Assembly (NCBI GenBank): GCA_950097015.1
Contig: CATNEN010000001.1
Coordinates: forward strand, 4,464,001 to 4,528,000
Source of the DNA: Macrostomum hystrix
Taxonomy: Eukaryota > Animalia > Platyhelminthes
Direction: 5' to 3'
DNA length: 64,000 nt
Both the position numbers and the translations under genes were made by a program. The first letter of the stretch is position 1, and each line of letters opens with the position of its first letter. Positions 813 through 33,100 of the stretch are shown piece after piece. The notes under the pieces were generated by a model. It saw only the letters and a list, made by a program, of their open reading frames with translations, was not told where the DNA came from and searched no databases.

Positions 813-926
813 AGACGTAGTACTTGGCCAAGCAGCAGCGAATGCAGAAAGCTAAATTGACAATTAGCGACACACAGAGCAGGGCTGGCACTCCGAATAC
901 GAAATCTGCGCGTGCGAACTGGATCA
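813..926 (-). CDS. Transmembrane-domain exon of a type I membrane protein (gene partial; last exon(s) not located)
   Basis: Acceptor aatccgcAG|926, donor 813|GTGAGT, both phase 1. Encodes IQFARADFVFGVPALLCVSLIVNLAFCIRCCLAKYYV: a hydrophobic helix followed by juxtamembrane Cys residues. Confidence 0.75.
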
Positions 927-1065
927 CTGCGGATTTAAGGCCATTGTGGATGATAGTTTTGTTTCTAACAAAAGTTAAAAATCGTTGGAATTGTTTTATT
1001 TGCTGTACTTTTTTACCCTCTCAGTCTCTCCCATCTTTCTCTTCTTTTAATGTATCTTTTCTGAC

Positions 1066-1665
1066 CTTATCTCTCTCCTATCTCCTTATCTCTCTCCTAT
1101 CTCCTTATCTCTCTCCTGTCTCTTTATCTCTCTCCTGTTTCCTTATCTCTCTCCTGTCTCCTTATCTCTCTCCTGTCTCATTATCTCTCTCCTGTATCCT
1201 TATCTCTCTCCTGTATCCTTATCTCTCTCCTGTTTCCTTATCTCTCTCCTGTCTCATTATCTCTCTCCTGTATCCTTATCTCTCTCCTGTATCCTTATCT
1301 CTCTCCTGTTTCCTTATCTCTCTCCTGTATCCTTATCTCTCTCCTGTCCCATTATCTCTCTCCTGTTTCCTTATCTCTCTCCTGTCTCATTATCTCTCTC
1401 CTGTATCCTTATCTCTCTCCTGTCCCATTATCTCTCTCCTGTTTCCTTATCTCTCTCCTGTCTCCTTATCTCTCTCCCGTCTTTTTATCTCTCTCCTGTC
1501 TTTTTATCTCTCTCCTGTCTCATTATCTCTCTCCTGTCTCCTTATCTCTCTCCTGTCTCCTTATCTCTCTCCTGTATCCTTATCTCTCTCCTGACTCCTT
1601 ATCTCTCTCCTGTCTCCTTATCTCTCTCCTGTCTCATTATCTCTCTCCTGTCTCCTTATCTCTCT
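1066..1665. repeat. 19-bp minisatellite (CTTATCTCTCTCCTGTCTC)n, intronic
   Basis: Tandem array; ORF 824..1594 shows the matching 19-aa period. Confidence 0.95.
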
Positions 1666-1807: not shown

Positions 1808-1897
1808 ATCGCGCATCGTAATTGGTTGTGTCATCTCTGTTTCCAGTTTCGGTTGTTGCATCTGTCCCAGCTTGACCACTGTCTGGTTGGGGTTGCC
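1808..1897 (-). CDS. Stalk exon of the type I membrane protein
   Basis: Acceptor ttcatttcattctcAG|1897, donor 1808|GTAAGT; 90 nt, phase 1-1. Encodes QPQPDSGQAGTDATTETGNRDDTTNYDAR, in frame with both neighbouring exons. Confidence 0.75.
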
Positions 1898-2284
1898 CTG
1901 AGAATGAAATGAATTGTGTTGCCAATTTTAGCAATTTCTTCAGTAAGTTTTCGTTTAGGTGGAATCCCGCTGTGAGTTTATTGTGCAACTAGTATGAACA
2001 TAAACGTTGCTTTTAAAAACCTTTTTACTCTCACACCACTGCCTAAAATAGGCTTTATCTATTGGGCTCACGACTTGCTAAAAAATGACAGCCATTTTGA
2101 GTACAACGACTATGAGTTGAAGGAAACTTTTTCCGTTTAACTGCACCGGAAATCTTTTCTGTACGTAATGAGTGTTGTTACACTTGAAAGATTATAACTG
2201 AAATACTTTTGAAAGACCTCTCAGGTTTCTAGATATTGGTGATTTAGATCTAAAAAACTCTAAGGTTAATAGACAAAACGGATA

Positions 2285-3265
2285 GAGAGGAGAGAATAGA
2301 TGAGATGGAGAGACAGGAGAGAATAGAGAGTAGTGGAGATGGACAAACAGAAGAGAATAGAGAATAGATGAGATGGAGAGACAGGAGAGAATAGAGAATA
2401 GATGAGATGGAGAGACAGGAGAGAATAGAGAATAGATGAGATGGAGAGACAGGAGAGAATAGAGAATAGATGAGATGAAAAGACAGGAGAGAATAGAGAA
2501 TAGATGAGATGGAGAGACAGGAGAGAATAGAGAGTAGTGGAGATGGAGAGACAGGAGAGAATAGAGAATAGATGAGATGGAGAGACAGGAGAGAACAGAG
2601 AATAGATGAGATGGAGAGACAGGAGAGAATAGAGAATAGATGAGATGGAGAGACAGGAGAGAATAGAGAATAGATGAGATGGAGAGACAGGAGAGAATAG
2701 AGAATAGATGAGATGGAGAGACAGGAGAGAATAGAGAATAGATGAGATGGAGAGACAGGAGAGAATAGAGAGTAGTGGAGATGGAGAGACAGGAGAGAAT
2801 AGAGAATAGATGAGATGGAGAGACAGGAGAGAATAGAGAATAGATGAGATGGACAGACAGGAGAGAATAGAGAATTGATGAGATGGAGAGACAGGAGAGA
2901 ATAGAGAATAGATGAGATGGAGAGACAGGAGAGAATAGAGAATATATGAGATGGAGAGACAGGAGAGAATAGAGAATTGATGAGATGGAGAGACAGGAGA
3001 GAATAGAGAATTGATGAGATGGAGAGACAGGAGAGAATAGAGAATAGATGAGATGGAGACACAGGAGAGAATAGAGAATTGATGAGATGGAGAGACAGGA
3101 GAGAATAGAGAATAGATGAGATGGAGAGACAGGAGAGAATAGGGAATTGATGAGATGGAGAGACAGGAGAGAATAGAGAATAGATGAGATGGAGAGACAG
3201 GAGAGAATAGAGAATTGATGAGAATAGATGAGATGGAGAGACAGGAGAGAATAGAGAATTGATGA
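2285..3265. repeat. 34-bp minisatellite (GAGAATAGAGAATAGATGAGATGGAGAGACAGGA)n, intronic
   Basis: Period 34 (e.g. 2401 vs 2435); a few further copies at 3394-3500. Confidence 0.95.
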
Positions 3266-3306
3266 GACAATGAGAGTAGCAGTGCTCAGGAGGCAGGTTC
3301 GCTCAC

Positions 3307-3390
3307 TGGTTGGTGGCAGCTCCGGATCAGGCGGTGCTAGGGTAGGACGCTGAGGAGTTTTGGCCACCGCGCTGCTGGTGGTTGTAACGG
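3307..3390 (-). CDS. Candidate duplicated 84-nt cassette exon (T/P-rich stalk)
   Basis: Copy of 3543-3626 (offset 236). Acceptor tctctcctgtctgtcCAG|3390, donor 3307|GTGAGC, phase 1-1, no stop: VTTTSSAVAKTPQRPTLAPPDPELPPT. Confidence 0.45.
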
Positions 3391-3542
3391 CTGGACAGAC
3401 AGGAGAGAATAGAGAATAGATGAGATGGAGAGACAGGAGAGAATAGAGAATTGATGAGAATAGATGAGATGGAGAGACAGGAGAGAATAGAGAATTGATG
3501 AGACAATGAGAGTAGCAGTGCTCAGGAGGCAGGTTCGCTCAC

Positions 3543-4067
3543 TGGTTGGTGGCAGCTCCGGATCAGGCGGTGCTAGGGTAGGACGCTGAGGAGTTTTGGC
3601 CACCGCGCTGCTGGTGGTTGTAACGGCTGCAGCAGGCGGTTCAGTGACAATTGGCTGTCGACCCAGCACCTCCCTGCTGATGGCGACATCTCCGCTAGTT
3701 TTAGCTTGAAATCTGCAATACCAGTTGCCGGCTAGTTTAGCCTGACGAATATCGATTTGTAGATCGATCGATTTGGCGCCGTAGGTCGGCTTGGACATTG
3801 CGCATCTGACGGAGCTGTTCAACACGGCATCGGCCAATTCGCAAGCCTGTCCTATTCCAATCGAGCACAATGGGCTGCAGTCGTAGAAGCACGGACTGCC
3901 GGATTTAATGGCCGGACAGTAAAACTGGATCTTTTGGTCATCGATTGGACCAACAATGCCGCTGACGTGGCAGGACACTATGATCACATTGGCGGTGACA
4001 TTCAGGCTGAGTTTCACGTTCAGGTCGGAGCTGGACGAGGCCCTGCCGATGTCTTGAAGGACTGCGG
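3543..4067 (-). CDS. Ectodomain exon: Cys-rich Ig-like domain plus T/P-rich stalk of a type I membrane protein (signal-peptide exon not located)
   Basis: Acceptor ctttaacAG|4067 (alternative CAG|4061), donor 3543|GTGAGC, phase 1-1. Eight Cys, with IIVSCHV and AGNWYCRF resembling Ig B/F strands; coding-like GC content. Confidence 0.75.
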
Positions 4068-4088
4068 CTGTTAAAGTATGAGGGGCAC

Positions 4089-4243
4089 TTTTTTTTATTA
4101 CACCTGCCCTAATTTGGCCGGCAGATGTGTAGCCGACAGCACAGCCGCAGCTATTGCGCGGCGCATCTGAAGGCTGCGTACGGCTGTTCAGTCCATGGAC
4201 TGGGGGTACGCCACACTCAGCTAATGCTGACACCATTCAACAG
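4089..4243 (-). mobile_element. SINE family B, 5'-truncated copy
   Basis: Closely matches 47718-47880 and 46850-46972 (gcagctattgcgcggcgcatctgaaggctgcgtac...gtccatggactggggg); A-rich tail on the minus strand. Confidence 0.85.
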
Positions 4244-5562: not shown

Positions 5563-8201
5563 TGATAGATGAGACAGTGGTGAGATGAGACAGTGGTGAG
5601 ATGAGAGAGTGGTGAGATGAGACACGGTAGAGATGAGACAGTGGTGAGATGAGACAGTGGTGAGATGAGACAGTGGTGAGATGAGACAGTGGAGAGATGA
5701 GACACGGTAGAGATGAGACAGTGGTGAGATGAGACAGTGGTGAGATGAGACAGTGGTGAGATGAGACAGTGGTGAGATGAGACAGTGGTGAGATGAGACA
5801 GTGGTGAGATGAGACAGTGGAGAGATGAGACACGGGAGAGATGAGACAGTGGTGAGATGAGACAGTGGTGAGATGAGACAGTGGTGAGATGAGACAGTGG
5901 AGAGATGAGACACGGTAGAGATGAGACAGTGGTGAGATGAGACAGTGGTGAGATGAGACAGTGGTGAGATGAGACAGTGGTGAGATGAGACAGTGGTGAG
6001 ATGAGACAGTGGTGAGATGAGACAGTGGAGAGATGAGACACGGGAGAGATGAGACAGTGGAGAGATGAGACAGTGGTGAGATGAGACAGTGGAGAGATGA
6101 GACACGGTAGAGATGAGACAGTGGTGAGATGAGACAGTGGTGAGATGAGACAGTGGTGAGATGAGACAGTGGAGAGATGAGACACGGTAGAGATGAGACA
6201 GTGGTGAGATGAGACAGTGGTGAGATGAGACAGTGGTGAGATGAGACAGTGGAGAGATGAGACACGGTAGAGATGAGACAGTGGTGAGATGAGACAGTGG
6301 TGAGATGAGACAGTGGTGAGATGAGACAGTGGTGAGATGAGACAGTGGTGAGATGAGACAGTGGTGAGATGAGACAGTGGTGAGATGAGACAGTGGAGAG
6401 ATGAGACACGGTAGAGATGAGACAGTGGTGAGATGAGACAGTGGTGAGATGAGACAGTGGTGAGATGAGACAGTGGTGAGATGAGACAGTGGAGAGATGA
6501 GACACGGTAGAGATGAGACAGTGGTGAGATGAGACAGTGGTGAGATGAGACAGTGGAGAGATGAGACACGGTAGAGATGAGACAGTGGTGAGATGAGACA
6601 GTGGTGAGATGAGACAGTGGTGAGATGAGACAGTGGAGAGATGAGACACGGTAGAGATGAGACAGTGGTGAGATGAGACAGTGGTGAGATGAGACAGTGG
6701 TGAGATGAGACAGTGGTGAGATGAGACAGTGGTGAGATGAGACAGTGGAGAGATGAGACACGGGAGAGATGAGACAGTGGAGAGATGAGACAGTGGTGAG
6801 ATGAGACAGTGGAGAGATGAGACACGGTAGAGATGAGACAGTGGTGAGATGAGACAGTGGTGAGATGAGACAGTGGTGAGATGAGACAGTGGAGAGATGA
6901 GACACGGTAGAGATGAGACAGTGGTGAGATGAGACAGTGGTGAGATGAGACAGTGGTGAGATGAGACAGTGGAGAGATGAGACACGGTAGAGATGAGACA
7001 GTGGTGAGATGAGACAGTGGTGAGATGAGACAGTGGTGAGATGAGACAGTGGTGAGATGAGACAGTGGTGAGATGAGACAGTGGTGAGATGAGACACGGG
7101 AGAGATGAGACACGAGAGAGATGAGACACGGGAGAGATGAGACACGGTAGAGATGAGACACGGGAGAGATGAGACACGGGAGAGAGGAGACACGGGAGAG
7201 ATGAGACACGGGAGAGATGAGAAACGGGAGAGATGAGACATGGGAGAGATGAGACATGGGAGAGATGAGACATGGGAGAGATGAGCTATGGAAGAGATGA
7301 GACACGGGAGAGATGAGACACGGGAGAGATGAGACACGGGAGAGATGAGACACGGGAGAGATGGGACACGGGAGAGATGGGACACGGGAGAGATGGGACA
7401 CGGGAGAGATGGGACACGGGGAGATGAGACACGGGAGAGATGAGACACGGGAGAGATGAGACACGGGAGAGATGAGATACGGTAGACTGGGGAGAGATGA
7501 GACACGGTGCAGATGAGACACGGGAGAGATGAGACACGGGAGAGATCAGACACGGGAGAGATGAGACACGGGAGAGATGAGACACGGGAGAGATGGGACA
7601 CGGGAGAGATGGGACACGGGAGAGATGAGACACGGGAGAGATGAGACACGGGAGAGATGAGACACGGGAGAGATGAGACACGGGAGAGATGAGACACGGG
7701 AGAGATGAGACACGGGAGAGATGGGACACGGGAGAGATGGGACACGGGAGAGATGGGACACGGGAGAGATGGGACACGGGGAGATGAGACACGGGAGAGA
7801 TGAGACACGGGAGAGATGAGACACGGGAGAGATGAGATACGGTAGACTGGGGAGAGATGAGACACGGTGCAGATGAGACACGGGAGAGATGAGACACGGG
7901 AGAGATCAGACACGGGAGAGATGAGACACGGGAGAGATGAGACACGGGAGAGATGGGACACGGGAGAGATGGGACACGGGAGAGATGAGACACGGGAGAG
8001 ATGAGACACGGGAGAGATGAGACACGGGAGAGATGAGACACGGGAGAGATGGGACACGGGAGAGATGGGACACGGGAGAGATGAGACACGGGAGAGATGA
8101 GACACGGGAGAGATGAGACACGGGAGAGATGAGACACGGGAGAGATGAGACACGGGAGAGATGAGACACGGGAGAGATGAGACACGGGAGAGATGAGACA
8201 T
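5563..8201. repeat. 16-bp minisatellite with two subdomains: (GAGATGAGACAGTGGT)n to ~7090, then (GAGATGAGACACGGGA)n
   Basis: Period 16. Higher-order copies at offset 720 (6001 vs 6721) and 360 (7321 vs 7681). Confidence 0.97.
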
Positions 8202-9254: not shown

Positions 9255-11655
9255 CGCCCTCTCCCTCCTTCTCTTCCGCTCTCACCCTCCTTCGCTTCCG
9301 CCCTCTCCATCCTTCGCTTCCGCCCTCTCCCTCCTTCTCTTCCGCCCTCTCCCTCCTTCTCTTCCGCTCTCTCCCTCCTTCGCTTCCGCCCTCTCCATCC
9401 TTCGCTTCCGCCCTCTCCCTCCTTCTCTTCCGCCCTCTCCCTCCTTCTCTTCCGCTCTCACCCTCCTTCGCTTCCGCCCTCTCCATCCTTCGCTTCCGCC
9501 CTCTCCCTCCTTCTCTTCCGCCCTCTCCCTCCTTCTCTTCCGCTCTCTCCCTCCTTCTCTTCCGCTCTCTCCCTCCTTCTCTTCCGCTCTCTCCCTCCTT
9601 CTCTCCCGCCCTCTCCCTCCTTCTCTTCCACCCTCTCCATCCTTCTCTTCCACCCTCTCCATCCTTTTCTTCTGCTCTCTCCCTCCTTCTCTTCCGCTCT
9701 CTCCCTCCTTCTCTCCCGCCCTCTCCCTCCTTCTCTTCCACCCTCTCCATCCTTTTCTTCTGCTCTCTCCCTCCTTCTCTTCCGCTCTCTCCCTCCTTCT
9801 CTCCCGCCCTCTCCCTCCTTCTCTTCCACCCTCTCCATCCTTTTCTTCTGCCCTCTCCCTCCTTCGCTTCCGCCCTCTCCCTCCTTCTCCTCCGCTCTCT
9901 CCCTCCTTCTCTTCCACTCTCTCCCTCCTTCTCTTCCGCCCTCTCCCTCCTCTCTTCCGCCGTCTCCCTCCTTCGCTTCCGCTCTCTCCCTCCTTCTCTT
10001 CCGCCGTCTCACCCCTTCTCTTCCGCTCTCTCCCTCCTTCTCTTCCGCTCTCTCCCTCCTTCTCTTCCGTCCTCTCCCTCCTTCTCTTCCGTCCTCTCCC
10101 TCCTTCTCTTCTGCTCTCTCCCTCCTTCTCTTCCGCTCTCTCCCTCGTTCTCTTCCGCCCTCTCCCTCCTTCTCTTCCGCCCTCTCCCTCCTTCTCTTCC
10201 GCTCTCTCCCTCCTTCTCTTCCGCTCTCTCCCTCCTTCTCTTCCGCCCTCTCCCTCCTTCTCTTCCGCCCTCTCCCTCCTTCTCTTCCGCCCTCTCTCTC
10301 CTTCTCTTCCACTCTCTCCCTCCTTCTCTTCCGCCGTCTCACTCCTTCGCTTCCGCTCTCTCCCTCCTTCTCTTCCGCTCTCTCCCTCCTTCTCTTCCGT
10401 CCTCTCCCTCCTTCTCTTCCGTCCTCTCCCTCCTTCTCTTCTGCTCTCTCCCTCCTTCTCTTCCGCTCTCTCCCTCGTTCTCTTCCGCCGTCTCCCTCAT
10501 TCTCTTCCGTCCTCTCCCTCCTTCTCTTCTGCTCTCTCCCTCCTTCTCTTCCGCTCTCTCCCTCGTTCTCTTCCGCCGTCTCCCTCGTTCTCTTCCGCCC
10601 TCTCCCTCCTTCTCTTCCGCCCTCTCCCTCCTTCTCTTCCGCTCTCTCCCTCCTTCTCTTCCGCTCTCTCCCTCCTTCTCTTCCGCCCTCTCCCTCCTTC
10701 TCTTCCGCCCTCTCCCTCCTTCTCTTCCGCCCTCTCTCTCCTTCTCTTCCACTCTCTCCCTCCTTCTCTTCCGCCGTCTCACTCCTTCGCTTCCGCTCTC
10801 TCCCTCCTTCTCTTCCGCTCTCTCCCTCCTTCTCTTCCGTCCTCTCCCTCCTTCTCTTCCGTCCTCTCCCTCCTTCTCTTCTGCTCTCTCCCTCCTTCTC
10901 TTCCGCTCTCTCCCTCGTTCTCTTCCGCCGTCTCCCTCATTCTCTTCCGTCCTCTCCCTCCTTCTCTTCTGCTCTCTCCCTCCTTCTCTTCCGCTCTCTC
11001 CCTCGTTCTCTTCCGCCGTCTCCCTCGTTCTCTTCCGCCCTCTCCCTCCTTCTCTTCCGCCCTCTCCCTCCTTCTCTTCCGCTCTCTCCCTCCTTCTCTT
11101 CCGCTCTCTCCCTCCTTCTCTTCCGCCCTCTCCCTCCTTCTCTTCCGCCCTCTCCCTCCTTCTCTTCCGCCCTCTCTCTCCTTCTCTTCCACTCTCTCCC
11201 TCCTTCTCTTCCGCCGTCTCACTCCTTCGCTTCCGCTCTCTCCCTCCTTCTCTTCCGCTCTCTCCCTCCTTCTCTTCCGTCCTCTCCCTCCTTCTCTTCC
11301 GTCCTCTCCCTCCTTCTCTTCTGCTCTCTCCCTCCTTCTCTTCCGCTCTCTCCCTCGTTCTCTTCCGCCGTCTCCCTCATTCTCTTCTGCTCTCTCCCTA
11401 CTTCTCTTCCGTCCTCTCCCTCATTCTCTTCCGCCGTCTCCCTCCTTCTCTTCTGCTCTCTCCTCTTCCGCCCTCTCCCTCCTTCTCTTCCGTCCTCTCC
11501 CTCCTTCTCTTCTGCTCTCTCCCTCCTTCTCTTCCGCTCTCTCCCTCGTTCTCTTCCGCCGTCTCCCTCATTCTCTTCTGCTCTCTCCCTACTTCTCTTC
11601 CGTCCTCTCCCTCATTCTCTTCCGTCCTCTCCCTACGTCTTTTCTACTCTCTCCC
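9255..11655. repeat. 22-bp pyrimidine-rich minisatellite (CCCTCTCCCTCCTTCTCTTCCG)n with a 440-bp higher-order repeat
   Basis: Tandem array; ORFs 10339..10782 and 10779..11222 translate identically. Confidence 0.97.
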
Positions 11656-12519
11656 TCAATATCAAAAACTCAACAAAACTTACCAAATCCAAGGTCTGTT
11701 GCACAGCCAATCAGCAAAACGAAGAAAATAATCGATATCAATCGATTGCCATTTTCCATTCTAAACAATTCTTTGAAGAACGATAGTTAATATAATGATA
11801 ATAATACGTGTGGTGCTCAGCTAGGATGACTAAAAAGCAAACACGCTGGTCCACACATTCGACGGTAAACTCGAGGACAGATCGAAAGACTTGTCAACGC
11901 GGCCGATTCTCTTAAAATAATACCGTCGATTACGCAACGCCGTAGGCAAATCTCCGAGGCGTGTCAAAGTGAGACATTAATAAAAGCTCTCTTCTGTTGC
12001 AGCACTAGAGTTGTGTTAGGCCATACAGAAGTTTAGTAGAATATTGCTTCGGGTCTCTGCAATTTCGGTTTTTTTTATTTATAATACTACGAATGCGCAT
12101 ATATTTATGTGTGTTTTCGTGCGTCTAGTATTAGTTTAGCCAATCCCAAAGCGTCTAAAGCTAATTGAGTACGTTAACTTAAAATCCGCAAATTTGCATG
12201 CATTCTGGTCTAGTGAAATCGAATGCAATGGTAGGACCGTATGGGGTGGGTGTGCGGTGTTCGGGGCAGGCAGGAGAGTAAAGTGCCGTAGCTTTCACTG
12301 TGAAGGCCGAGTCATTGGTTGCACTGGTGAGAAATAGGAGAGAGACGTGGCTAAAGGTAAAGGTTGAGATTAGAATAAGCTTTGTTTTAGCTGTTCAATG
12401 TTCATTGCACGCTTCTGAACTAATGTTATTGTGATTTATAGAAGTAGTTACACGATTATAACTAATCTGCCGTGGGATGGTACATGCAGAAACTGCCACC
12501 CTTTGCCACTCTTGCCTTT

Positions 12520-16618: not shown

Positions 16619-17067
16619 ATGGCTAGTGTTGCTGTCAACTCGCCTATTCGTTCTCAACAGCAGCAGCAGCAGCAGCAGCAACCTGTTCTATCGCAGCAAG
16701 AGCAGCCACAATCAGAATTAGTCATTCTGACACTAAAAAATGTACTTTTGCCGCCAGATCGTTTAGACCCAGCTAATAGTCCATCCAGGCACGATAGTCT
16801 GTCCTACACTGACGAATGGAATCTGCGCTATATGGGCTGCGAACTAATACAATCTGCTAGCATACTATTGAAATTGCCGCATGTTGCCTGCGCCACTGGC
16901 CAAGTGCTCTATCAGAGATTCTATTACTCTCGCTCTCTAGTCAGGCATCACTATGAGCACATGGCTATGGCTTGCATCTTTCTGGCTGCCAAAATTGAAG
17001 AGGAGCCTAGAAGGGCTCGCGATGTTATTAACGTGTTTCATCACATTAGACAGTTTAGAGAGAAACG
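16619..17067 (+). CDS. CCNL1: Cyclin L, coding exon 1
   Basis: SPSRHD...LRYMGCELIQSASILLKLPHVACATGQVLYQRFYYS...AMACIFLAAKIEEEPRRARDVINVFHH is the cyclin L cyclin box. Donor CG|GTGAG, phase 2; N-terminal polyQ. Confidence 0.96.
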
Positions 17068-17138
17068 GTGAGTTTTTATTATGAAACTGTTTTTGCAATT
17101 TAAATTCCCAAGATTTTCTGTCTTGTATTTTTTTATAG

Positions 17139-17259
17139 AGCATTCACACCGCTGCCTCTTGATGCCAACTATGTCAATCTGAAAAATCAAGTCATTAAAG
17201 CTGAGCGACGTCTATTGAAAGAACTCGGCTTCTCTGTTCATGTTCAGCATCCGCACAAG
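17139..17259 (+). CDS. CCNL1: Cyclin L, coding exon 2
   Basis: ttttatAG|17139, [40 protein letters not shown], then |GTGAG. Confidence 0.96.
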
Positions 17260-17336
17260 GTGAGGCATTGTTGTTGTTGTTTGCTTGTGTTTGTGCACAC
17301 ATCATAGTCATTTCGACTGAACTGTACTCACAGTGT

Positions 17337-18488
17337 GTGAGATTTGCTGTCAACTGAGCTGTAGTGACAGGGTATGAGATTCGCTGTCAACTGAGCTGTA
17401 GTGACAGGGTGTGAGATTTGCTGTCAACTGAGCTGTAGTGACAGGGTATGAGATTCGCTGTCAACTGAGCTGTAGTGACAGGGTATGAGATTTGCTGTCA
17501 ACTGAGCTGTAGTGACGGGGTATGAGATTTGCTGTCAACTGAGCTGTAGTGACAGGGTATGAGATTTGCTGTCAACTGAGCTGTAGTGACAGGGTGTGAG
17601 ATTTGCTGTCAACTGAGCTGTAGTGACAGGGTATGAGATTCGCTGTCAACTGAGCTGTAGTGACAGGGTATGAGATTCGCTGTCAACTGAGCTGTAGTGA
17701 CGGGGTATGAGATTTGCTGTCAACTGAGCTGTAGTGACAGGGTATGAGATTTGCTGTCAACTGAGCTGTAGTGACAGGGTATGAGATTCGCTGTCAACTG
17801 AGCTGTAGTGACAGGGTATGAGATTTGCTGTCAACTGAGCTGTAGTGACAGGGTATGAGATTCGCTGTCAACTGAGCTGTAGTGACAGGGTATGAGATTT
17901 GCTGTCAACTGAGCTGTAGTGACAGGGTATGAGATTCGCTGTCAACTGAGCTGTAGTGACAGGGTATGAGATTCGCTGTCAACTGAGCTGTAGTGACAGG
18001 GTATGAGATTTGCTGTCAACTGAGCTGTAGTGACAGGGTATGAGATTCGCTGTCAACTGAGCTGTAGTGACAGGGTATGAGATTTGCTGTCAACTGAGCT
18101 GTAGTGACAGGGTATAAGATTCGCTGTCAACTGAGCTGTAGTGACGGTATGAGATTTGCTGTCAACTGAGCTGTAGTGACAGGGTATGAGATTTGCTGTC
18201 AACTGAGCTGTAGTGACAGGGTATGAGATTTGCTGTCAACTGAGCTGTAGTGACAGGGTATGAGATTTGCTGTCAACTGAGCTGTAGTGACAGGGTATAA
18301 GATTCGCTGTCAACTGAGCTGTAGTGACGGTATGAGATTTGCTGTCAACTGAGCTGTAGTGACAGGGTATGAGATTTGCTGTCAACTGAGCTGTAGTGGC
18401 AGGGTATGAGATTTGCTGTCAACTGAGCTGTAGTTACAGGGTGTGAGATACGCTGTCAACTGAGCTGTAGTGACAGGGTATGAGATTT
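17337..18488. repeat. 37-bp minisatellite (GAGATTTGCTGTCAACTGAGCTGTAGTGACAGGGTAT)n in cyclin L intron 2
   Basis: About 31 near-identical head-to-tail units, no spacers. Confidence 0.97.
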
Positions 18489-18761
18489 TTTTGAGACAAA
18501 TTTTACAAATGGTGTGTTGTAAATCCATTAAATTTTGATTCAGTTACTCAACTAATTAAATTGATCTGCAAGGATGCTTTTCGGGTAAAATAGCTGTCAA
18601 ATCATATTGTAATCAATTGCTAACACAGTTTTGCAAGTTTTGGAATTAATTATCCTAAGATTTTATTAGTCAACAACAAGCTAACCTGTACGCTCCCCCC
18701 GTGTCCGCCCATTCCCATGGCGACTCGGGTGGCTGTGCCTTGAAATTTTCTAATTTCACAG

Positions 18762-18826
18762 CTGATACCAGTGTGGCTCAACTGGCTGTGTCTGGACGAT
18801 AATCAGCAGTTGAGACAGTCTGCTTG
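18762..18826 (+). CDS. CCNL1: Cyclin L, coding exon 3 (65 nt)
   Basis: tttcacAG|LIPVWLNWLCLDDNQQLRQSA(W)|GTGAG; bridges HPHK and NYMND in frame, as in other cyclin L proteins. Confidence 0.9.
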
Positions 18827-19189
18827 GTGAGTTCAATTCTCTTTTAATAATGCTTTAAGTTTGATTTCACTCATCAATTAAGAAGTATTTAATTTTTCTA
18901 ATGAAAATAAACAAGATACCAGCAGTCTTATCTGTTCTGCACTTTTCTGTTCTACTACAAAATTTAAAATATAAAAATAACAAATCGTTATTAAAACTTG
19001 TAAAATTTACCGTTAGAGACTCATTGTGGCTAAAGAAATGTGGTCTAGAGTTCTCTGCAACCGGTCCCTTTCTCGAAAGTACTACAGAACTGCCAAAGTA
19101 CAAATTGGGGTAGGTATAGCGGTATGGGATGGGATGGGATAAGAGATAATACAAAAGAGAGACGGGACACGGCACATTGCAGCATAGCA

Positions 19190-19792
19190 GAGATGAGACA
19201 CGGGAAAGATGAGACACGGCAGAGATGAGACACGGCAGAGATGAGACACGGGAGAGATGAGGCACGGGAGAGATGAGACACGGGAAAGATGAGACACGGC
19301 AGAGATGAGGCACGGGAGAGATGAGACACGGGAAAGATGAGACACGGCAGAGATGAGACACGGGAGAGATGAGACACGGGAGAGATAAGACATGGGAGAG
19401 ATGAGACACGGGAGAGATGAGACACGGGTGAGATGAGACACGGGTGAGATAAGACACGGCAGAGATAAGACACGGAAGAGATGAGACACGGGAGAGATGA
19501 GACACGGAAGAGATGAGACACGGAAGAGATGAGACACGGGAGAGATGAGACACGGGAGAGATGAGACACGGGAGAGATGAGGCACGGGAGAGATGAGACA
19601 CGGGAGAGATGAGACACGGCAGAGATGAGACACGGGAGAGATGAGACACGGGTGAGATGAGACACGGCAGAGATGAGGCACGGAAGAGATGAGACACGGC
19701 AGAGATGAGGCACGGAAGAGATGAGACACGGAAGAGATAAGACACGGGAGAGATCCATATCCGACCCGTGGGCCGTAGTTTGCGCACGCCTC
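19190..19792 (-). mobile_element. 16-bp satellite array abutting a degenerate hAT MITE end
   Basis: (GAGATGAGACACGGGA)n at 19190-19753. The reverse complement of 19755-19792 matches the MITE left end at 43837 at 28/38 positions, ungapped. Confidence 0.7.
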
Positions 19793-20324
19793 GCAGGAAT
19801 AAACATATTCGTCAATTTTATTAAGCAAAGAGCGCTAAAAATAACGTTTAATTCTACGATAAATGCTTTTTTGGCAATGCTGTTATCTAACCATGATCTC
19901 CCCCCTTTTGCCTTTCTTCCCCTTCTCCCTCCCCATCCCCAACCATCGGCAATGAAATAGATCCCCACGCAAAGTTCGGCGCAGATACAATTGCTTCGAC
20001 GCAAGTGTGGCTGAGCGAAAGAAAAGAAAATAACTCTGCTGATGAGAGACACGACTCGCCAGTCGCCAGTCTCCGTGCCAGCCACGCTAACTGGCCCGAT
20101 ACCGTTCATGTGCGATGATGGCTCGAGCAATCAGTTATCTGGCTCTGGCATATTGGCAAACTGCTCCGACTGCTCAGAGACTGCCGCTCCTTGTATTGGT
20201 TGGCCATTTTTGAAACTTTTCTTGCCAGTTTTTTTGAAACATTTTCGCTGTCTGTAGCGTGCGTGATGCTTCAAATCGACAAATAAGTTCGGTTGAAAAC
20301 CATTGAGGGACACAATACATTGAG

Positions 20325-21325
20325 GATTAATCCCAGTTCCCCATGAACTGTCAGATTAAATCCCAGTTTCTCAGGGACTGTCAGACATAATCCCAGATCC
20401 TCATAAACTGTCAGACACAAACCTAGATCCTCATGGACTGTCAGACATTCTGAGATCCTCATAAACTGACAGACACAATCCCAGATCCCCATAAACTGAC
20501 AGTCTGACAGATACAATCCCAGATCCCCATGAACTGTCAGATTAAATCCCAGATTCTCAGGGAGTGTCAGACACAATCCCAGATGCCCAGGGACTGTCAG
20601 ACATAATCCCAGATCCTCATAAACTGACAGACACAATCCCAGATCCTCATGGACTGTCAGACACAATCCCAGATCTCCATAAACTGACAGATACAATCCC
20701 AGATCCCCATAAACTGACAGAAACAATCCCAGATCCCCTTAAACTGACAGACACAATCCCAGATCCTCATGGACTGTCAGACACAATCCCAGATCCTCAT
20801 AAACTGACAGACACAATCCCAGATCCTCATGGACTGTCAGATACAATCCCAGATCCTCATGAACTGACAGACACAATCCCAGATCCTCATAAACTGACAG
20901 ACACAATCCCAGATCCTCATAAACTGACAGACACAATCCCAGATCCTCATGGACTGTTAGACACAATCCCAGATCTCCATAAACTGACTGACACAATCCC
21001 AGATCCTCATAAACTGACAGACACAATCCCAGATCCTCATGGACTGTCAGATACAATCCCAGATCCTCATAAACTGACAGACAATCCCAGATCCTCATGG
21101 ACTGTTAGACACAATCCCAGATCTCCATAAACTGACAGACAATCCCAGATCCTCATAAACTGACAGACACAATCCCAGATCCTCATGGACTGTCAGATAC
21201 AATCCCAGATCCTCATAAACTGACAGACAATCCCAGATCCTCATGGACTGTTAGACACAATCCCAGATCCTCATGAACTGACAGACACTCCGAGATCCTC
21301 ATGAACTGTCAGTCACAATCCCAGA
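20325..21325. repeat. 30-bp minisatellite (ACACAATCCCAGATCCTCATAAACTGACAG / ...GGACTGTCAG)n in cyclin L intron 3
   Basis: Tandem array with two alternating variants. Confidence 0.95.
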
Positions 21326-22328
21326 ACTTAAAAAAAACTGACAGGCTGCCTGTCTGCATCGAAGTTTCTTGTCATGGCTTGCCCACTATGTATTTATGTA
21401 TATATATTGATTTATCATGTTCGCTCGTATTCTACAGACTACTTGAAGAGCATAAGCAGAGCACAACATCCGGATCCTTGACATCGTTGGCGCGGAGTCG
21501 ACCTGAAATGACTGCAAGGCATTGCATTCTTGTTTTAATGCATATAAATTCGTGTTGATTTAATCCGAGCATTTCTGCAATGGTTTCAGCAGTTATTTTC
21601 CAGTCAACCGTCAAAGCGCTTGATAGTACCGGCTTATTCAAAGCGATTCAATGACTGACGAGGTGCCACTGCAACGAGAGTCGCGATAAGTCTTTGACTA
21701 ATGAACAACTTTGATGATTTGCTTAGCATAGACAATCTGTTTGTATCCTAGTTATAACTATGTAAAGTCATACTGATGTTATTAAAGTAGTAAGTAAGGT
21801 ACGCTTATTCAAAGCAAGATAATATTATATGAAATTTAAGCGACAATACAGATCTGAACTATATTCAGTGTATAATCTTAATACAGAGACCTATTAAATA
21901 ATAAATATAAAAGGATTTCTGAATAGATTTCTAACCTTGCAAATACTAATTTTGTGTCATAGTTACAATGACTAAAATAAACTAAAGCCTTCAGAATATT
22001 TTATTAATTTCTGGAACAAAAAGTTTAATATTAAATTTGCAATAATAATGCTTTGAACAGAAAATACAGAACAGGTAAGACAAAACTAATTGACTAGAAT
22101 ACTAGCTATTACATCTTCTATTCTATTCTATTCTTGTTTGCAATATAAATAAGGTCCTATAATTATGAAATTGTTTTTGTTGTCATTTATTGACCTTATT
22201 TTATTTGTTTTCTAAGAATGAATATAAAAGAAGTTTGTAATAATATAATCAGGCAAAAACTCTCGCCTATGTATTCTAGGGTAGTTAGTTTTTTTCTATA
22301 ATTCCCTAATCCTGTCTGACACCTTCAG

Positions 22329-23268
22329 GAACTACATGAACGACAGCTTTCGAACGCACGTGTTTTGTCAGTTCAGTCCGGAACAGGTGGCCTGCGGTTG
22401 CATCCTCCTAGCTGCTAGGAAACTGCGTGTACCCCTACCAGACAATTGGATGGAACTATTGGACTGCAGCTACGAGAATGCGGTTGATATCTGTCACACT
22501 CTGCTCAGCCTGTATGCTAGGCCTCCTGTTGATTGGTCCGCCGCCGAAGCGGCCGTTGTTGAAGCCAAAAAGGCGATGGAGCGGGCTAAACTGGCCGCCA
22601 AAAATGCGGCAAATAGCGGCCAGCAGCAGTTGAGCGGCCCTGATTCGGCTTCGGGCACGCCGGCTGGCATTGGAGCTTCGCGATTTGGCACCGTGGATTC
22701 GCCTAATCTTGCTGCCAATGCGGCTGGCGCTGATTCAAAACAGCTTCAGCTGCAGCAGCAGAAAAAGTCTATTTCTAAATCCGACCCCGTCACTTCCGAC
22801 AGTGTCAACAAAAAGTCGTCCAATTCTTCTAGAAAAAAGTCCAGCTCCAAACGAGATCGTCGGCATCGACGCAGCGACGATCGGCGTCGGCGTAGACGCG
22901 GATTCGACGAAGACAATGACGACGATGACGAAGAGAATAATGGTCACCAAAGCAACCGCGACGACAATAATATGGCCGACAATGACGACAACAATAACAA
23001 TGGCAGCTCCGGCGCTGACAACAATGACGACGGCAGTCGGTCAAGGTCTCGTTCCCGTTCCAGATCTAGATCGTTGTCTAGGGAGCGTCGGCGTAGGCAT
23101 CATCATCATCATCGGCATCATCGGAGGCGCAGTCGCGATAGTCGCGATATCGGCGGCGTCTCGCTGAGTGCGATTCGCGACTCTCGCGGCGACGGCGATC
23201 GGCGACGCCATCGAGATCGTCAGAACGGCTTCGGCTACGGTGGTCCCGCTCAGAAGCGACGCAGATGA
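22329..23268 (+). CDS. CCNL1: Cyclin L, coding exon 4 (end of second cyclin fold plus RS domain)
   Basis: accttcAG|G NYMNDSFRTHVFCQFSPEQVACGCILLAARKL...; RSRSRSRSRS and a poly-His tract. AATAAA near 23368. Joined CDS is 1575 nt (524 aa). Confidence 0.96.
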
Positions 23269-27149: not shown

Positions 27150-30100
27150 GATTTTTCTGAAACTCTACCTGAGTTTTCTGAATCTCTACCTGAGGTTTCT
27201 GAATCTCTACCTGAGTTTTCTCAATCTCTACCTGAGGTTTCTGAATCTCTACCTGACTATTTTCTCAATCTCTACCTGAGGTTTCTCAATTCTTACCTGA
27301 GTTTTCTCAATTCTTACCTGAGTTTTCTAAATCTCTACCTGAGTTTTCTGAATCTCCACCTGAGTTTTCTGAATCTCTACCTGAGGTTTCTGAATCTCTA
27401 CCTGAGTTTTCTCAATCTCTACCTGAGTTTTCTCAATCTCTACCTGAGTTTTCTCAATCTCCACCTGAGTTTTCTCAATCCCTACCTGAGGTTTCTGAAT
27501 CTCTACCTGAGTTTTCTCAATCTCTACCTGAGGTTTCTGAATCTCTACCTGAGTTTTCTCAATCTCTACCTGAGTTTTCTCAATCTCTACCTGAGGTTTC
27601 GGAATCTCTACCTGACTATTTTCTAAATTTCTACCTGAGTTTTCTCAATCTCCACCTGAGTTTTCTCAATCTCTACCTGAGGTTTCTGAATCTCTACCTG
27701 AGTTTTCTCAATCTCTACCTGAGTTTTCTCAATCTCTACCTCAGTTTTCTCAATCTCTACCTGAGGTTTCTCAATCTCTACCTGAGTTTTCTCAATCTCC
27801 ACCTGAGTTTTCTCAATCCCTACCTGAGGTTTCTGAATCTCTACCTGAGTTTTCTCAATCTCTACCTGAGGTTTCTGAATCTCTACCTGACTATTTTCTA
27901 AATCTCTACCTGAGTTTTCTCAATCTCTACCTGAGGTTTCTCAATTCTTACCTGAGTTTTCTCAATTCTTACCTGAGTTTTCTAAATCTCTACCTGAGTT
28001 TTCTCAATCTCCACCTGAGTTTTCTAAATCTCTACCTGAGGTTTCTGAATCTCTACCTGAGGTTTCTGAATCTCTACCTGAGTTTTCTCAATCTCCACCT
28101 GAGTTTTCTGAATCTCTACCTGAGGTTTCTGAATCTCTACCTGAGTTTTCTGAATCTCCACCTGAGTTTTCTGAATCTCTACCTGAGGTTTCTGAATCTC
28201 TACCTGAGTTTTCTCAATCTCTACCTGAGTTTTCTCAATCTCTACCTGAGGTTTCGGAATCTCTACCTGACTATTTTCTAAATTTCTACCTGAGTTTTCT
28301 CAATCTCCACCTGAGTTTTCTCAATCTCTACCTGAGGTTTCTGAATCTCTACCTGAGTTTTCTCAATCTCTACCTGAGTTTTCTCAATCTCTACCTCAGT
28401 TTTCTCAATCTCTACCTGAGGTTTCTAAATCTCTACCTGAGGTTTCTGAATCTCTACCTGAGGTTTCTGAATCTCTACCTGAGTTTTCTCAATCTCCACC
28501 TGAGTTTTCTCAATCTCTACCTGAGGTTTCTCAATCTCTACCTGAGTTTTCTCAATCTCTACCTGAGTTTTCTCAATCTCTACCTGAGGTTTCGGAATCT
28601 CTACCTGACTATTTTCTAAATTTCTACCTGAGTTTTCTCAATCTCCACCTGAGTTTTCTCAATCTCTACCTGAGGTTTCTGAATCTCTACCTGAGTTTTC
28701 TCAATCTCTACCTGAGTTTTCTCAATCTCTACCTCAGTTTTCTCAATCTCTACCTGAGGTTTCTGAATCTCTACCTGAGGTTTCTGAATCTCTACCTGAG
28801 TTTTCTCAATCTCTACCTGAGTTTTCTCAATCTCTAACTGAGGTTTCTGAATCTCTACCTGAGTTTTATCAATCTCTACCTCAGTTTTCTCAATCTCTAC
28901 CTCAGTTTTCTCAATCTCTACCTGAGGTTTCTGAATCTCTACCTGAGGTTTCTGAATCTCTACCTGAGTTAGATTTCTCAATCTCCACCTGAGTTTTCTC
29001 AATCTCCACCTGAGGTTTCTGAATCTCTACCTGAGTTTTCTCAATCTCCACCTGAGTTTTCTCAATCCCTACCTGAGGTTTCTGAATCTCTACCTGAGTT
29101 TTCTCAATCTCTACCTGAGTTTTCTCAATCTCTACCTGAGTTTTCTCAATCTCTACCTGAGTTTTCTCAATCTCCACCTGAGTTTTCTAAATCTCTACCT
29201 GAGGTTTCTGAATCTCTACCTGAGGTTTCTGAATCTCTACCTGAGTTTTCTCAATCTCCACCTGAGTTTTCTGAATCTCTACCTGAGGTTTCTGAATCTC
29301 TACCTGAGTTTTCTGAATCTCCACCTGAGTTTTCTGAATCTCTACCTGAGGTTTCTGAATCTCTACCTGAGTTTTCTCAATCTCTACCTGAGTTTTCTCA
29401 ATCTCTACCTGAGGTTTCGGAATCTCTACCTGACTATTTTCTAAATTTCTACCTGAGTTTTCTCAATCTCCACCTGAGTTTTCTCAATCTCTACCTGAGG
29501 TTTCTGAATCTCTACCTGAGTTTTCTCAATCTCTACCTGAGTTTTCTCAATCTCTACCTCAGTTTTCTCAATCTCCACCTGAGTTTTCTAAATCTCTACC
29601 TGAGGTTTCTGAATCTCTACCTGAGGTTTCTGAATCTCTACCTGAGTTTTCTCAATCTCCACCTGAGTTTTCTCAATCTCTACCTGAGGTTTCTAAATCT
29701 CTACCTGAGTTTTCTCAATCTCTACCTGAGTTTTCTCAATCCCTACCTGAGGTTTCGGAATCTCTACCTGACTATTTTCTAAATTTCTACCTGAGTTTTC
29801 TCAATCTCCACCTGAGTTTTCTCAATCTCTACCTGAGGTTTCTGAATCTCTACCTGAGTTTTCTCAATCTCTACCTGAGTTTTCTCAATCTCTACCTCAG
29901 TTTTCTCAATCTCTACCTGAGGTTTCTGAATCTCTACCTGAGGTTTCTGAATCTCTACCTGAGTTTTCTCAATCTCTACCTGAGTTTTCTCAATCTCTAC
30001 CTGAGGTTTCTGAATCTCTACCTGAGTTTTATCAATCTCTACCTGAGTTTTCTCAATCTCTACCTGAGGTTTCTGAATCTCTACCTGAGTTTTATCAATC

Positions 30101-33100
30101 TCTACCTCAGTTTTCTCAATCTCTACCTGAGGTTTCTGAATCTCTACCTGAGGTTTCTGAATCTCTACCTGAGTTAGTTTTCTCAATCTCCACCTGAGTT
30201 TTCTCAATCTCCACCTGAGTTTTGTCAATCTCCACCTGAGTTTTCTCAATCTCCACCTGAGTTTTCTCAATCCCTACCTGAGGTTTCTGAATCTCTACCT
30301 GAGTTTTCTCAATCTCTACCTGAGTTTTCTCAATCTCTACCTGAGTTTTCTCAATCTCTACCTGAGTTTTCTCAATCTCTACCTGAGGTTTCTGAATCTC
30401 TACCTGAGGTTTCTGAATCTCTACCTGAGTTTTCTCAATCTCCACCTGAGTTTTCTGAATCTCTACCTGAGGTTTCTGAATCTCTACCTGAGTTTTCTGA
30501 ATCTCCACCTGAGTTTTCTGAATCTCTACCTGAGGTTTCTGAATCTCTACCTGAGTTTTCTCAATCTCTACCTGAGTTTTCTCAATCTCTACCTGAGGTT
30601 TCGGAATCTCTACCTGACTATTTTCTAAATTTCTACCTGAGTTTTCTCAATCTCCACCTGAGTTTTCTCAATCTCTACCTGAGGTTTCTGAATCTCTACC
30701 TGAGTTTTCTCAATCTCTACCTGAGTTTTCTCAATCTCTACCTCAGTTTTCTCAATCTCCACCTGAGTTTTCTAAATCTCTACCTGAGGTTTCTGAATCT
30801 CTACCTGAGGTTTCTGAATCTCTACCTGAGTTTTCTCAATCTCCACCTGAGTTTTCTCAATCTCTACCTGAGGTTTCTAAATCTCTACCTGAGTTTTCTC
30901 AATCTCTACCTGAGTTTTCTCAATCCCTACCTGAGGTTTCGGAATCTCTACCTGACTATTTTCTAAATTTCTACCTGAGTTTTCTCAATCTCCACCTGAG
31001 TTTTCTCAATCTCTACCTGAGGTTTCTGAATCTCTACCTGAGTTTTCTCAATCTCTACCTGAGTTTTCTCAATCTCTACCTCAGTTTTCTCAATCTCTAC
31101 CTGAGGTTTCTGAATCTCTACCTGAGGTTTCTGAATCTCTACCTGAGTTTTCTCAATCTCTACCTGAGTTTTCTCAATCTCTACCTGAGGTTTCTGAATC
31201 TCTACCTGAGTTTTATCAATCTCTACCTGAGTTTTCTCAATCTCTACCTGAGGTTTCTGAATCTCTACCTGAGTTTTATCAATCTCTACCTCAGTTTTCT
31301 CAATCTCTACCTGAGGTTTCTGAATCTCTACCTGAGGTTTCTGAATCTCTACCTGAGTTAGTTTTCTCAATCTCCACCTGAGTTTTCTCAATCTCCACCT
31401 GAGTTTTGTCAATCTCCACCTGAGTTTTCTCAATCTCCACCTGAGTTTTCTCAATCCCTACCTGAGGTTTCTGAATCTCTACCTGAGTTTTCTCAATCTC
31501 TACCTGAGTTTTCTCAATCTCTACCTGAGTTTTCTCAATCTCTACCTGAGTTTTCTCAATCTCTACCTGAGGTTTCTGAATCTCTACCTGAGGTTTCTGA
31601 ATCTCTACCTGACTATTTTCTAAATCTCTACCTGAGTTTTCTCAATCTCTACCTGAGGTTTCTCAATTCTTACCTGAGTTTTCTCAATCTCCACCTGAGT
31701 TTTCTCAATCTCCACCTGAGTTTTCTCAATCTCCACCTGAGTTTTCTCAATCCCTACCTGAGGTTTCTGAATCTCTACCTGAGTTTTCTCAATCTCTACC
31801 TGAGTTTTCTCAATCTCTACCTGAGTTTTCTCAATCTCTACCTGAGTTTTCTCAATCTCCACCTGAGTTTTCTAAATCTCTACCTGAGGTTTCTGAATCT
31901 CTACCTGACTATTTTCTAAATCTCTACCTGAGTTTTCTCAATCTCTACCTCAGTTTTCTCAATCTCTACCTGAGGTTTCTGAATCTCTACCTGAGGTTTC
32001 TGAATCTCTACCTGAGTTTTCTCAATCTCCACCTGAGTTTTCTCAATCTCTACCTGAGGTTTCTGAATCTCTACCTGAGTTTTATCAATCTCTACCTCAG
32101 TTTTCTCAATCTCTACCTCAGTTTTCTCAATCTCTACCTGAGGTTTCTGAATCTCTACCTGAGGTTTGTGAATCTCTACCTGAGTTAGTTTTCTCAATCT
32201 CCACCTGAGTTTTCTCAATCTCTACCTGAGGTTTCTGAATCTCTACCTGAGATTTCTGAATCTCTACCTGACTATTTTCTAAATCTCTACCTGAGTTTTC
32301 TCAATCTCTACCTGAGGTTTCTCAATTCTTACCTGAGTTTTCTCAATCTCCACCTGAGTTTTCTCAATCTCCACCTGAGTTTTCTCAATCTCCACCTGAG
32401 TTTTCTCAATCCCTACCTGAGGTTTCTGAATCTCTACCTGAGTTTTCTCAATCTCTACCTGAGTTTTATCAATCTCTACCTCAGTTTTATCAATCTCTAC
32501 CTCAGTTTTCTCAATCTCTACCTGAGGTTTCTGAATCTCTACCTGAGGTTTCTGAATCTCTACCTGAGTTAGTTTTCTCAATCTCCACCTGAGTTTTCTC
32601 AATCTCCACCTGAGTTTTGTCAATCTCCACCTGAGTTTTCTCAATCTCCACCTGAGTTTTCTCAATCCCTACCTGAGGTTTCTGAATCTCTACCTGAGTT
32701 TTCTCAATCTCTACCTGAGTTTTCTCAATCTCTACCTGAGTTTTCTCAATCTCTACCTGAGTTTTCTCAATCTCTACCTGAGGTTTCTGAATCTCTACCT
32801 GAGGTTTCTGAATCTCTACCTGAGTTTTCTCAATCTCCACCTGAGTTTTCTGAATCTCTACCTGAGGTTTCTGAATCTCTACCTGAGTTTTCTGAATCTC
32901 CACCTGAGTTTTCTGAATCTCTACCTGAGGTTTCTGAATCTCTACCTGAGTTTTCTCAATCTCTACCTGAGTTTTCTCAATCTCTACCTGAGGTTTCGGA
33001 ATCTCTACCTGACTATTTTCTAAATTTCTACCTGAGTTTTCTCAATCTCCACCTGAGTTTTCTCAATCTCTACCTGAGGTTTCTGAATCTCTACCTGAGT

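What the first reader, a model, noticed from the sequence alone, without database searches (positions are those of the whole stretch)
3158..3629. Candidate exon birth: a 236-bp duplication fuses an exon end to a satellite that supplies the 3' splice site
Seen: 3394-3629 is repeated 236 bp away, copying the end of the ectodomain exon together with its GTGAGC donor. On the sense (minus) strand the copy starts at an exonic CAG, directly after the pyrimidine-rich strand of the 34-bp satellite (…TCTATTCTCTCCTGTCTGTCCAG|CCGTTACA…). The result is a perfect 84-nt, phase 1-1, stop-free exon (3390-3307) behind a 152-nt intron. Inference: the satellite serves as a ready-made polypyrimidine tract, and inclusion would add a second 28-aa T/P-rich mucin-like stalk unit to the receptor.
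Basis: partly seen in the sequence, partly recalled or inferred. Interest (0 to 1): 0.8.

Follow-up and report, generated by a model that had tools for sequence, protein, structure and literature searches.

The report
Young duplicated exon end, mostly skipped
In a flatworm membrane-protein gene, a likely very recent 236-base duplication copied the end of an exon and set it behind a repeat that looks like a splice signal, but the shallow transcript data examined show only the normal message, so the extra piece is likely skipped and this is a new case of a known kind of exon-edge duplication.

Summary
3394-3629 is repeated at 3158-3393 (235/236 identical), and an 84-nt, in-frame, CAG/GTGAGC-bounded candidate exon (3390-3307) follows a 152-nt intron whose last 130 nt lack any other AG. 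The duplication is real: an RNA-like public run holds the exact satellite|copy junction. The host is a Macrostomum-type gene for a predicted Ig-fold type I membrane protein; its exon 1-2 and 2-3 joins are seen in transcript contigs.

Exon birth is not shown. None of 4 spliced runs has the 3543->3390 joint. In the only run proven to carry the duplication, the new acceptor appears unspliced. Depth is low (3-9), so inclusion of half or more is unlikely (p about 0.006 if all four carry the allele; 0.1-0.4 from the proven carrier alone), while a quarter or less is not excluded. The 'perfect' exon arises in about 12% of random duplications of this kind. The closest known case is the amphioxus 'mirage' exon-edge duplication, which leaves splicing normal. 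Verdict: a young, probably polymorphic duplicate donor, mostly silent, with a latent satellite-backed acceptor.

The parts
3394..3629 (-). Original unit of the duplication: last 87 nt of exon 2 plus the first 149 nt of intron 2
3158..3393 (-). Tandem copy, 235/236 identical; 2-nt microhomology (CA) at the breakpoint
3307..3390 (-). Candidate 84-nt phase 1-1 exon (28 aa of stalk); inclusion not seen
3391..3542 (-). Candidate 152-nt intron between the first donor and the new CAG; AG-free last 130 nt, YTNAY 34 nt upstream
3537..3542 (-). Original donor GTGAGC of exon 2
3301..3306 (-). Duplicated donor GTGAGC
3392..3503 (-). Stranded piece of the 34-bp satellite (82% pyrimidine, no AG on the sense strand) upstream of the new CAG
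2284..3255 (-). Main 34-bp satellite array in intron 2 (28.5 units)
3364..3441 (.). Stretch held letter for letter as one 78-nt contig in run X2: the satellite|copy junction, unspliced
   Evidence: table 8; unique in the window
3543..4067 (-). Exon 2 (525 nt): predicted V-type Ig-like domain and start of the stalk
11684..11759 (-). Coding part of exon 1 (predicted signal peptide); its join to exon 2 is seen in X2
1808..1897 (-). Exon 3 (rest of the stalk); start seen in X2 and X8, end predicted
813..926 (-). Exon 4, predicted; transmembrane segment nearly identical to that of the M. lignano relative

Best explanation
A likely recent local duplication copied the last 87 bases of exon 2, its donor and the start of a satellite-filled intron, and the spliceosome likely keeps using the first donor, so the copy is mostly removed with intron 2 and the normal protein is made. 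Shown: the copy, its junction in an independent run, and the normal exon 2 to exon 3 message. Inferred: origin by template slippage or break repair at a 2-nt CA microhomology at the edge of an unstable satellite; young age; first-donor choice; inclusion below about 5%. The satellite-backed CAG is a latent acceptor that a later change could activate.
For: No 3543->3390 joint in X1, X4 or X2, X8. X1's 2467-nt contig runs unbroken over 3542-4068 with 0 differences at depth 8.7; an included copy would make a loop in the assembly graph and break it. Depth in X1 and X4 is flat over 3575-3644 and 0 over 3260-3364. X1's 2.45 in bin 3365-3399 equals 8/35 of the satellite depth 10.7, so no further contig lies there (my arithmetic). 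All 5 X2 records are listed and none is an inclusion junction; one holds the acceptor unspliced at depth 2.8. Chance of missing the junction if all four runs carry the allele: 0.006 at 50% inclusion. Youth: run X6 differs from the window at 4 sites within 3456-3629, where the two copies differ at 0; the M. lignano relative has a single stalk of 88 aa against 91 for the skip form. Background: 25 near-perfect tandem duplications in 64 kb, 46% of which is tandem arrays. Precedent: amphioxus mirages do not disturb splicing (PMC3087553, passages); identical downstream donors in human F7 stay silent (PMC1557585, abstract).
Against: Depth is only 3-9 and contigs drop k-mers seen once (PMC12424806, passage): at 25% inclusion the chance of seeing nothing is 0.16, at 10% it is 0.66. 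Only X2 is proven to carry the duplication; from X2 alone even full inclusion is missed with p 0.11. The candidate acceptor looks good on paper. Short reads cannot tell which donor joins exon 3, so first-donor choice is not directly seen. Tissue or stage restriction was not testable; whether each run is RNA is itself inferred from spliced contigs.
Confidence: 0.6

Rival explanations
1. Minor cassette exon: in carriers a minority of messages (about 5-50%) splice 3543->3390, using the satellite as pyrimidine tract, and make a protein whose stalk is 119 rather than 91 aa.
For: CAG acceptor, 130-nt AG-free zone, YTNAY at -34, intact donor and frame kept; 119 vs 91 aa stalk; low depth leaves this open (p 0.16-0.66 of no detection at 25-10%); a paralogue in M. 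lignano has a 109-aa stalk, so length looks tolerated.
Against: 0 of 4 spliced runs show the joint; the acceptor is seen unspliced in the carrier X2; native acceptors of the gene do not rely on long pyrimidine tracts.
Confidence: 0.27
2. Full exon birth: the exon is included in half or more of the messages from the duplicated allele, and was missed because most runs come from non-carriers.
For: Only X2 is a proven carrier; X6 and X7 (intron-covering) show no junction, so non-carriers may exist; X2 alone misses full inclusion with p 0.11.
Against: X1 is from the same study and organism label as X2 and matches the window at all 527 aligned letters, including sites that vary in X6, yet is unbroken. 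In X2 the shared 88-nt piece has depth 4.3 against 3.8 and 6.8 upstream, not double.
Confidence: 0.06
3. The second donor competes: a sizeable share of messages keep the 152-nt segment and splice from 3307 to exon 3, which shifts the frame and stops at 3337-3339, lowering output or making a truncated protein with a hydrophobic, satellite-coded tail.
For: In X2 the unspliced junction piece (depth 2.8) leads into the piece that continues to exon 3; read-through gives a stop 30 nt before the second donor and two 19-aa stretches of mean hydropathy 1.84-1.85; in human CBS 844ins68 the duplicated site is the one favoured (PMC2630376, passage).
Against: X2 has no piece over 3486-3541 and no branch at 3543; X1, X4 and X8 show none of this form. 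The piece may be 1-3 molecules of pre-mRNA or DNA: X1 carries about 0.7x intron-like background.
Confidence: 0.05
4. The duplication is an assembly artefact at the edge of a satellite.
For: X7 (intron-covering, depth 117) and X6 (depth 27.5) pass 3629 unbroken and hold no junction piece.
Against: X2 holds 3364-3441 with 0 differences, including the variant at 3396, and its neighbouring contigs break at 3600-3629, exactly where a 31-mer graph must branch; 33 of its 31-mers are unique in the window. It has 30 letters on the copy side, one short of the tool's 31-letter bridging rule, which is what a k=31 graph gives when the next word is shared with the original.
Confidence: 0.02

Closest known systems
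Amphioxus 'mirage' duplications of exon-intron boundaries (Adh3, BflGb6, BflGb9; PMC3087553, passages)
   Same: Tandem copy spanning an exon-intron boundary, carrying a splice signal. BflGb9 holds a duplicate of the 3' boundary of exon 2 (157 bp). Reported not to disturb regular splicing; the paper already models an exonic part of a unit turning into a real exon.
   Different: Flatworm rather than cephalochordate; 236-bp unit, two copies; the copy abuts an unrelated pyrimidine-rich satellite that gives a ready-made acceptor; copy-number instability not shown here.
Human F7 intron 7 37-bp VNTR (PMC1557585, abstract)
   Same: A repeat starting across an exon-intron boundary leaves identical downstream donors that are functional but silent, the most upstream one being chosen.
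   Different: There the minisatellite itself carries the donors; here one larger unit copies 87 nt of exon and creates a possible acceptor between the donors.
Human CBS 844ins68 (PMC2630376, passage)
   Same: Polymorphic small duplication of a splice junction that leaves a normal mRNA.
   Different: [quoted passage not shown]
Tandem exon duplication (PMC9013439 and PMC12343006, passages) and intron gain by tandem duplication (PMC3443670, passages)
   Same: Intragenic duplication supplies new exon or splice-site material; partial, inter-boundary and intronic matches are reported as more frequent than full-exon ones.
   Different: The acceptor is not copied but newly composed from satellite plus an exonic CAG, and no new exon or intron is shown to be spliced.
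Alu exonization (named in bioRxiv 10.1101/009282, passage; the role of the Alu's U-rich tail as pyrimidine tract is recalled)
   Same: A repeat supplies the pyrimidine-rich part of a new acceptor.
   Different: Here the repeat is a tandem satellite and the exon body and donor are copied from the gene's own exon.
M. lignano BOX15_Mlig009626g1 (PAA94197.1) and paralogues
   Same: 49-52% identity over exon 2; near-identical transmembrane segment; same order of signal peptide, Cys-rich domain, stalk and membrane anchor.
   Different: Single stalk without the repeat; all are uncharacterised, so 'receptor' is an inference from architecture.

Membership tests
Mirage-type exon-boundary duplication | Tandem repeat unit spans an exon-intron boundary and carries its splice signal | tested here: met
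   87 nt exon + donor + 149 nt intron, two copies
Mirage-type exon-boundary duplication | Regular splicing of the mRNA continues | tested here: met
   Normal exon 2-3 message in 4 of 4 spliced runs, at depth 3-9; only one is a proven carrier
Mirage-type exon-boundary duplication | Minisatellite-like length variation between haplotypes | tested here: inconclusive
   Junction in X2, none in X6 or X7; graph cleaning beside a deep satellite may have removed it in X7
New cassette exon from tandem duplication | Copy bounded by a plausible acceptor and donor, frame kept | tested here: met
New cassette exon from tandem duplication | Inclusion junction present in transcripts | tested here: not met
   0 of 4 spliced runs; the test excludes only high inclusion
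Intron gain by tandem duplication (Rogers model) | A purely exonic AGGT-type segment is duplicated and the span between the copies is spliced out | tested here: not met
   The unit includes an existing donor and intron sequence; no new intron is seen spliced
Immunoglobulin superfamily, V-type domain (host protein) | Ig beta-sandwich fold | tested here: met
   Model of mean pLDDT 65.8 from 9 sequences; best matches are antibody V domains, Z 10.9, rmsd 2.9, 110 aligned; Foldseek E 7e-5
Immunoglobulin superfamily, V-type domain (host protein) | Sequence match to a curated V-set or Ig profile | tested here: inconclusive
   0 Pfam families at E<=1; weak Atlas look-alikes at 0.84-0.90; UniRef names some relatives 'Ig-like'

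The most novel reading that the evidence does not exclude
A still-polymorphic exon caught at birth: a satellite's AG-free pyrimidine strand serves as the 3' splice signal for a copied exon end, giving carriers a minor isoform of an Ig-like surface protein with a 28-aa longer stalk. With 22 of 33 arrays in this window having a strand of 70% or more pyrimidine, satellites would be a general source of new acceptors in this genome.
Probability: 0.3. Interest if true: 0.5.

Novelty: new member of a known kind. Interest (0 to 1): 0.25.

Why it matters
As it most likely stands, it is one more exon-edge duplication tolerated by splicing, extending the amphioxus 'mirage' pattern to flatworms. It matters mainly as a natural test system: two identical donors, a ready-made satellite acceptor and probably carrier and non-carrier animals in a lab-tractable genus, so one RT-PCR can ask whether a tandem repeat can act as a 3' splice signal and which donor an invertebrate spliceosome picks. 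If inclusion were found, it would be a clean case of exon birth from satellite plus copied exon. My two searches aimed at that combination (0 papers, 11 listings) and a related one showed no such case in their listings.

Tried and rejected
No whole genome is held for this window, so paralogues and other haplotypes of the assembly could not be searched. A protein search with the stop-to-stop frame 3544-4236 at near lengths found nothing; the relative is 513 aa and appeared only with 'longer'. Pfam gave no family. Folding without an alignment gave pLDDT 44. P0005 and P0007 were dropped as low-complexity stalk matches; P0010 was left out of alignment A2. Of 20 runs listed, 7 were laid; X3 and X5, which hold 68-69% of the words, were not, and 11 runs with shares of 0.19 or less were ignored. 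X9 covers only 3591-3848 and says nothing on the joint. Absence of the junction in X7 and X6 is not taken as proof of polymorphism: contigs show presence, not absence, and a short link beside satellite nodes of depth 943-1223 may be removed in graph cleaning (recalled behaviour of the assembler). Holes in cover (X2 3486-3541; X7 3930-4065) prove nothing. Three cyclin L acceptors, placed by eye, were 55-72% pyrimidine, so some native tracts are richer than this gene's; one was set 2 bases off. Gao and Lynch 2009 is not held and was seen only as a citation. No earlier finding overlaps this place. No supplements were read; Additional file 4 of PMC3087553 may bear on how alike the mirage units are.

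Full report
Observation. The sequence is as described. 3629-3394 recurs at 3393-3158 with one mismatch (3396 vs 3160), 2 nt from the breakpoint. The unit holds the last 87 nt of an exon, its GTGAGC donor and 149 nt of intron, ending in 34-bp satellite units. On the minus strand the copy begins with CAG, leaving an 84-nt candidate exon (3390-3307) after a 152-nt candidate intron. That intron has AGs only 149, 132 and 2 nt from its end, a YTNAY motif at -34 and 85% pyrimidine in the last 40 nt. The breakpoint shares only CA between the exon start point and the satellite end point.

Host gene. Transcript contigs define exon 2 as 4067-3543. In run X2 the loose end at 4068 is the end of exon 1 (located at 11685) and, in X2 and X8, the loose end at 3542 is the start of exon 3 (located at 1867-1896). 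Exons 11759-11684, 4067-3543, 1897-1808 and 926-813 give an open frame with a predicted signal peptide, Cys-rich domain, stalk and membrane segment; the ends of exons 3 and 4 are predicted. The relatives found are uncharacterised Macrostomum lignano proteins (best 49-52% identity, 513 aa) and one unnamed protein. The window is therefore likely from another Macrostomum species, which I did not determine. A model from 9 sequences (mean pLDDT 65.8) matches antibody V domains best (Z 10.9, rmsd 2.9, 110 aligned; Foldseek E 7e-5), while Pfam gives nothing. 'Receptor' is a fair guess from architecture; no ligand is known.

Is the duplication real? Yes. X2, whose contigs are spliced, holds a 78-nt contig identical to 3364-3441, across the satellite|copy junction, at depth 2.8. 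Its neighbours break at 3600-3629, where a 31-mer graph must branch if two different sequences lead into the shared piece. It has 30 letters on the copy side, one short of the tool's bridging rule, as expected when the next word is shared with the original. Two intron-covering runs show no junction: X7 (depth 117, 1 difference over 3466-3929) and X6 (depth 27.5, 5 differences). This hints at polymorphism but may be graph cleaning. X6 differs at 4 sites within 3456-3629 where the two copies are identical, so the duplication is likely younger than the split from that haplotype, unless gene conversion homogenised the copies.

Is the exon used? Not detectably. Of 20 runs listed, 7 were laid and 4 are spliced (X1, X2, X4, X8). 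None shows the 3543->3390 joint. X1's contig is unbroken from 4068 through 3542 and on for 1471 more letters. Depth in X1 and X4 is flat across the duplicated part and zero over 3260-3364. All 5 X2 records are listed and none is an inclusion junction. In X2, the only proven carrier, the new acceptor is seen unspliced, which fits pre-mRNA, DNA background or use of the second donor. The test is weak: depths are 8.7, 3.8, 3.4 and 3.9, and words seen once are dropped (PMC12424806, passage). Poisson chances of seeing nothing, if all four carry the allele, are 0.006 at 50% inclusion, 0.16 at 25% and 0.66 at 10%; from X2 alone they are 0.11 at 100% and 0.43 at 50%. Short reads cannot tell which donor joins exon 3, because both are preceded by the same 87 letters.

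How surprising is the anatomy? Modestly. Tandem arrays cover 46% of the window, and 22 of 33 merged arrays have a strand of 70% or more pyrimidine. 25 near-perfect tandem duplications of period 60-1500 were found, 24 inside arrays; this is the one that reached unique DNA. Given such a duplication, an in-frame YAG within 10 nt of the junction arises in 11.6% of breakpoint pairs. The gene's own acceptors are 40-50% pyrimidine over 40 nt and three cyclin L acceptors placed by eye are 55-72%, so a long tract is not required here. Inclusion would lengthen the stalk from 91 to 119 aa; M. lignano relatives have 88 and 109 aa.

Mechanism. Most likely (0.6), slippage or break repair at the satellite edge made a young duplicate donor, the first donor is still chosen, and the copy leaves with intron 2. 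The copy, its junction and the normal message are shown; origin, age and donor choice are inferred. Rivals are minor inclusion (0.27), major inclusion in carriers (0.06), sizeable use of the second donor with a frameshift and stop at 3337-3339 (0.05) and artefact (0.02).

Comparison with what is known. An earlier scan note (e1-7276239) pointed to amphioxus 'mirages', which I checked in print. These are tandem duplications of exon-intron boundaries; BflGb9 holds a 157-bp duplicate of the 3' boundary of exon 2; they appear not to disturb splicing; and the authors already model a unit's exonic part becoming a real exon (PMC3087553, passages). Human F7 shows identical downstream donors staying silent (PMC1557585, abstract). 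CBS 844ins68 is a harmless polymorphic junction duplication (PMC2630376, passage). Partial and intronic exon copies are common in genome surveys (PMC12343006 and PMC9013439, passages). The case fails the inclusion test for a new cassette exon and the definition of Rogers-type intron gain (PMC3443670, passages). The one twist is the satellite as source of the acceptor. Searches for it (listings, plus passages of PMC8819188) showed no matching case, but the library lacks most subscription papers.

Verdict. Real, young and well formed, but exon birth is unshown and shallow RNA evidence leans against it. New member of a known kind; interest 0.25. If carriers include the exon (probability about 0.3), interest would be about 0.5.

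Noticed in passing
window 4122-4216: A very high-copy short repeat in intron 1 just upstream of the exon 2 acceptor: summed depth about 2.4 million against 117 for single-copy DNA in run X7, roughly 20,000-fold; a SINE- or MITE-like element is a guess.
   Followed up: no
window 16619-23268 (+): Cyclin L-like gene (PF00134 hit; RS-rich tail) with a polyQ N-terminus and three satellite arrays in its introns; the subfamily name is recalled from the architecture.
   Followed up: partly
window 3600 and 3606: Run X6 carries two G>A changes (sense strand) at first codon positions of stalk alanines, which would give threonines: the stalk varies between haplotypes.
   Followed up: partly
window 3542-3337 (-): Read-through of the first donor encodes two hydrophobic 19-aa stretches (mean hydropathy 1.84-1.85) from intron and satellite sequence before a stop, a possible alternative membrane anchor if that form exists.
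   Followed up: partly
window 7288-8163, 10139-11389, 29106-31622, 56144-57059: Near-perfect higher-order duplications (periods 360, 440, 1184 and 374) inside satellite arrays, showing recent array turnover.
   Followed up: no
window 1065-1665 and 2284-3255: The satellites of introns 3 and 2 share a core motif but lie in opposite orientation (70-76% complementary over 38-40 nt), so the pre-mRNA could pair around exon 3.
   Followed up: no
window 3543-4067 (-): The exon 2 domain belongs to a small Cys-rich Ig-like family found here only in Macrostomum plus one unnamed protein, with seven invariant cysteines in the 9-sequence alignment; no Pfam model covers it.
   Followed up: partly
run X4, contig over 3542-4068: The contig ends 29 letters beyond 3542, as if the assembly graph branches at the start of the next exon; the letters were not shown.
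   Followed up: no
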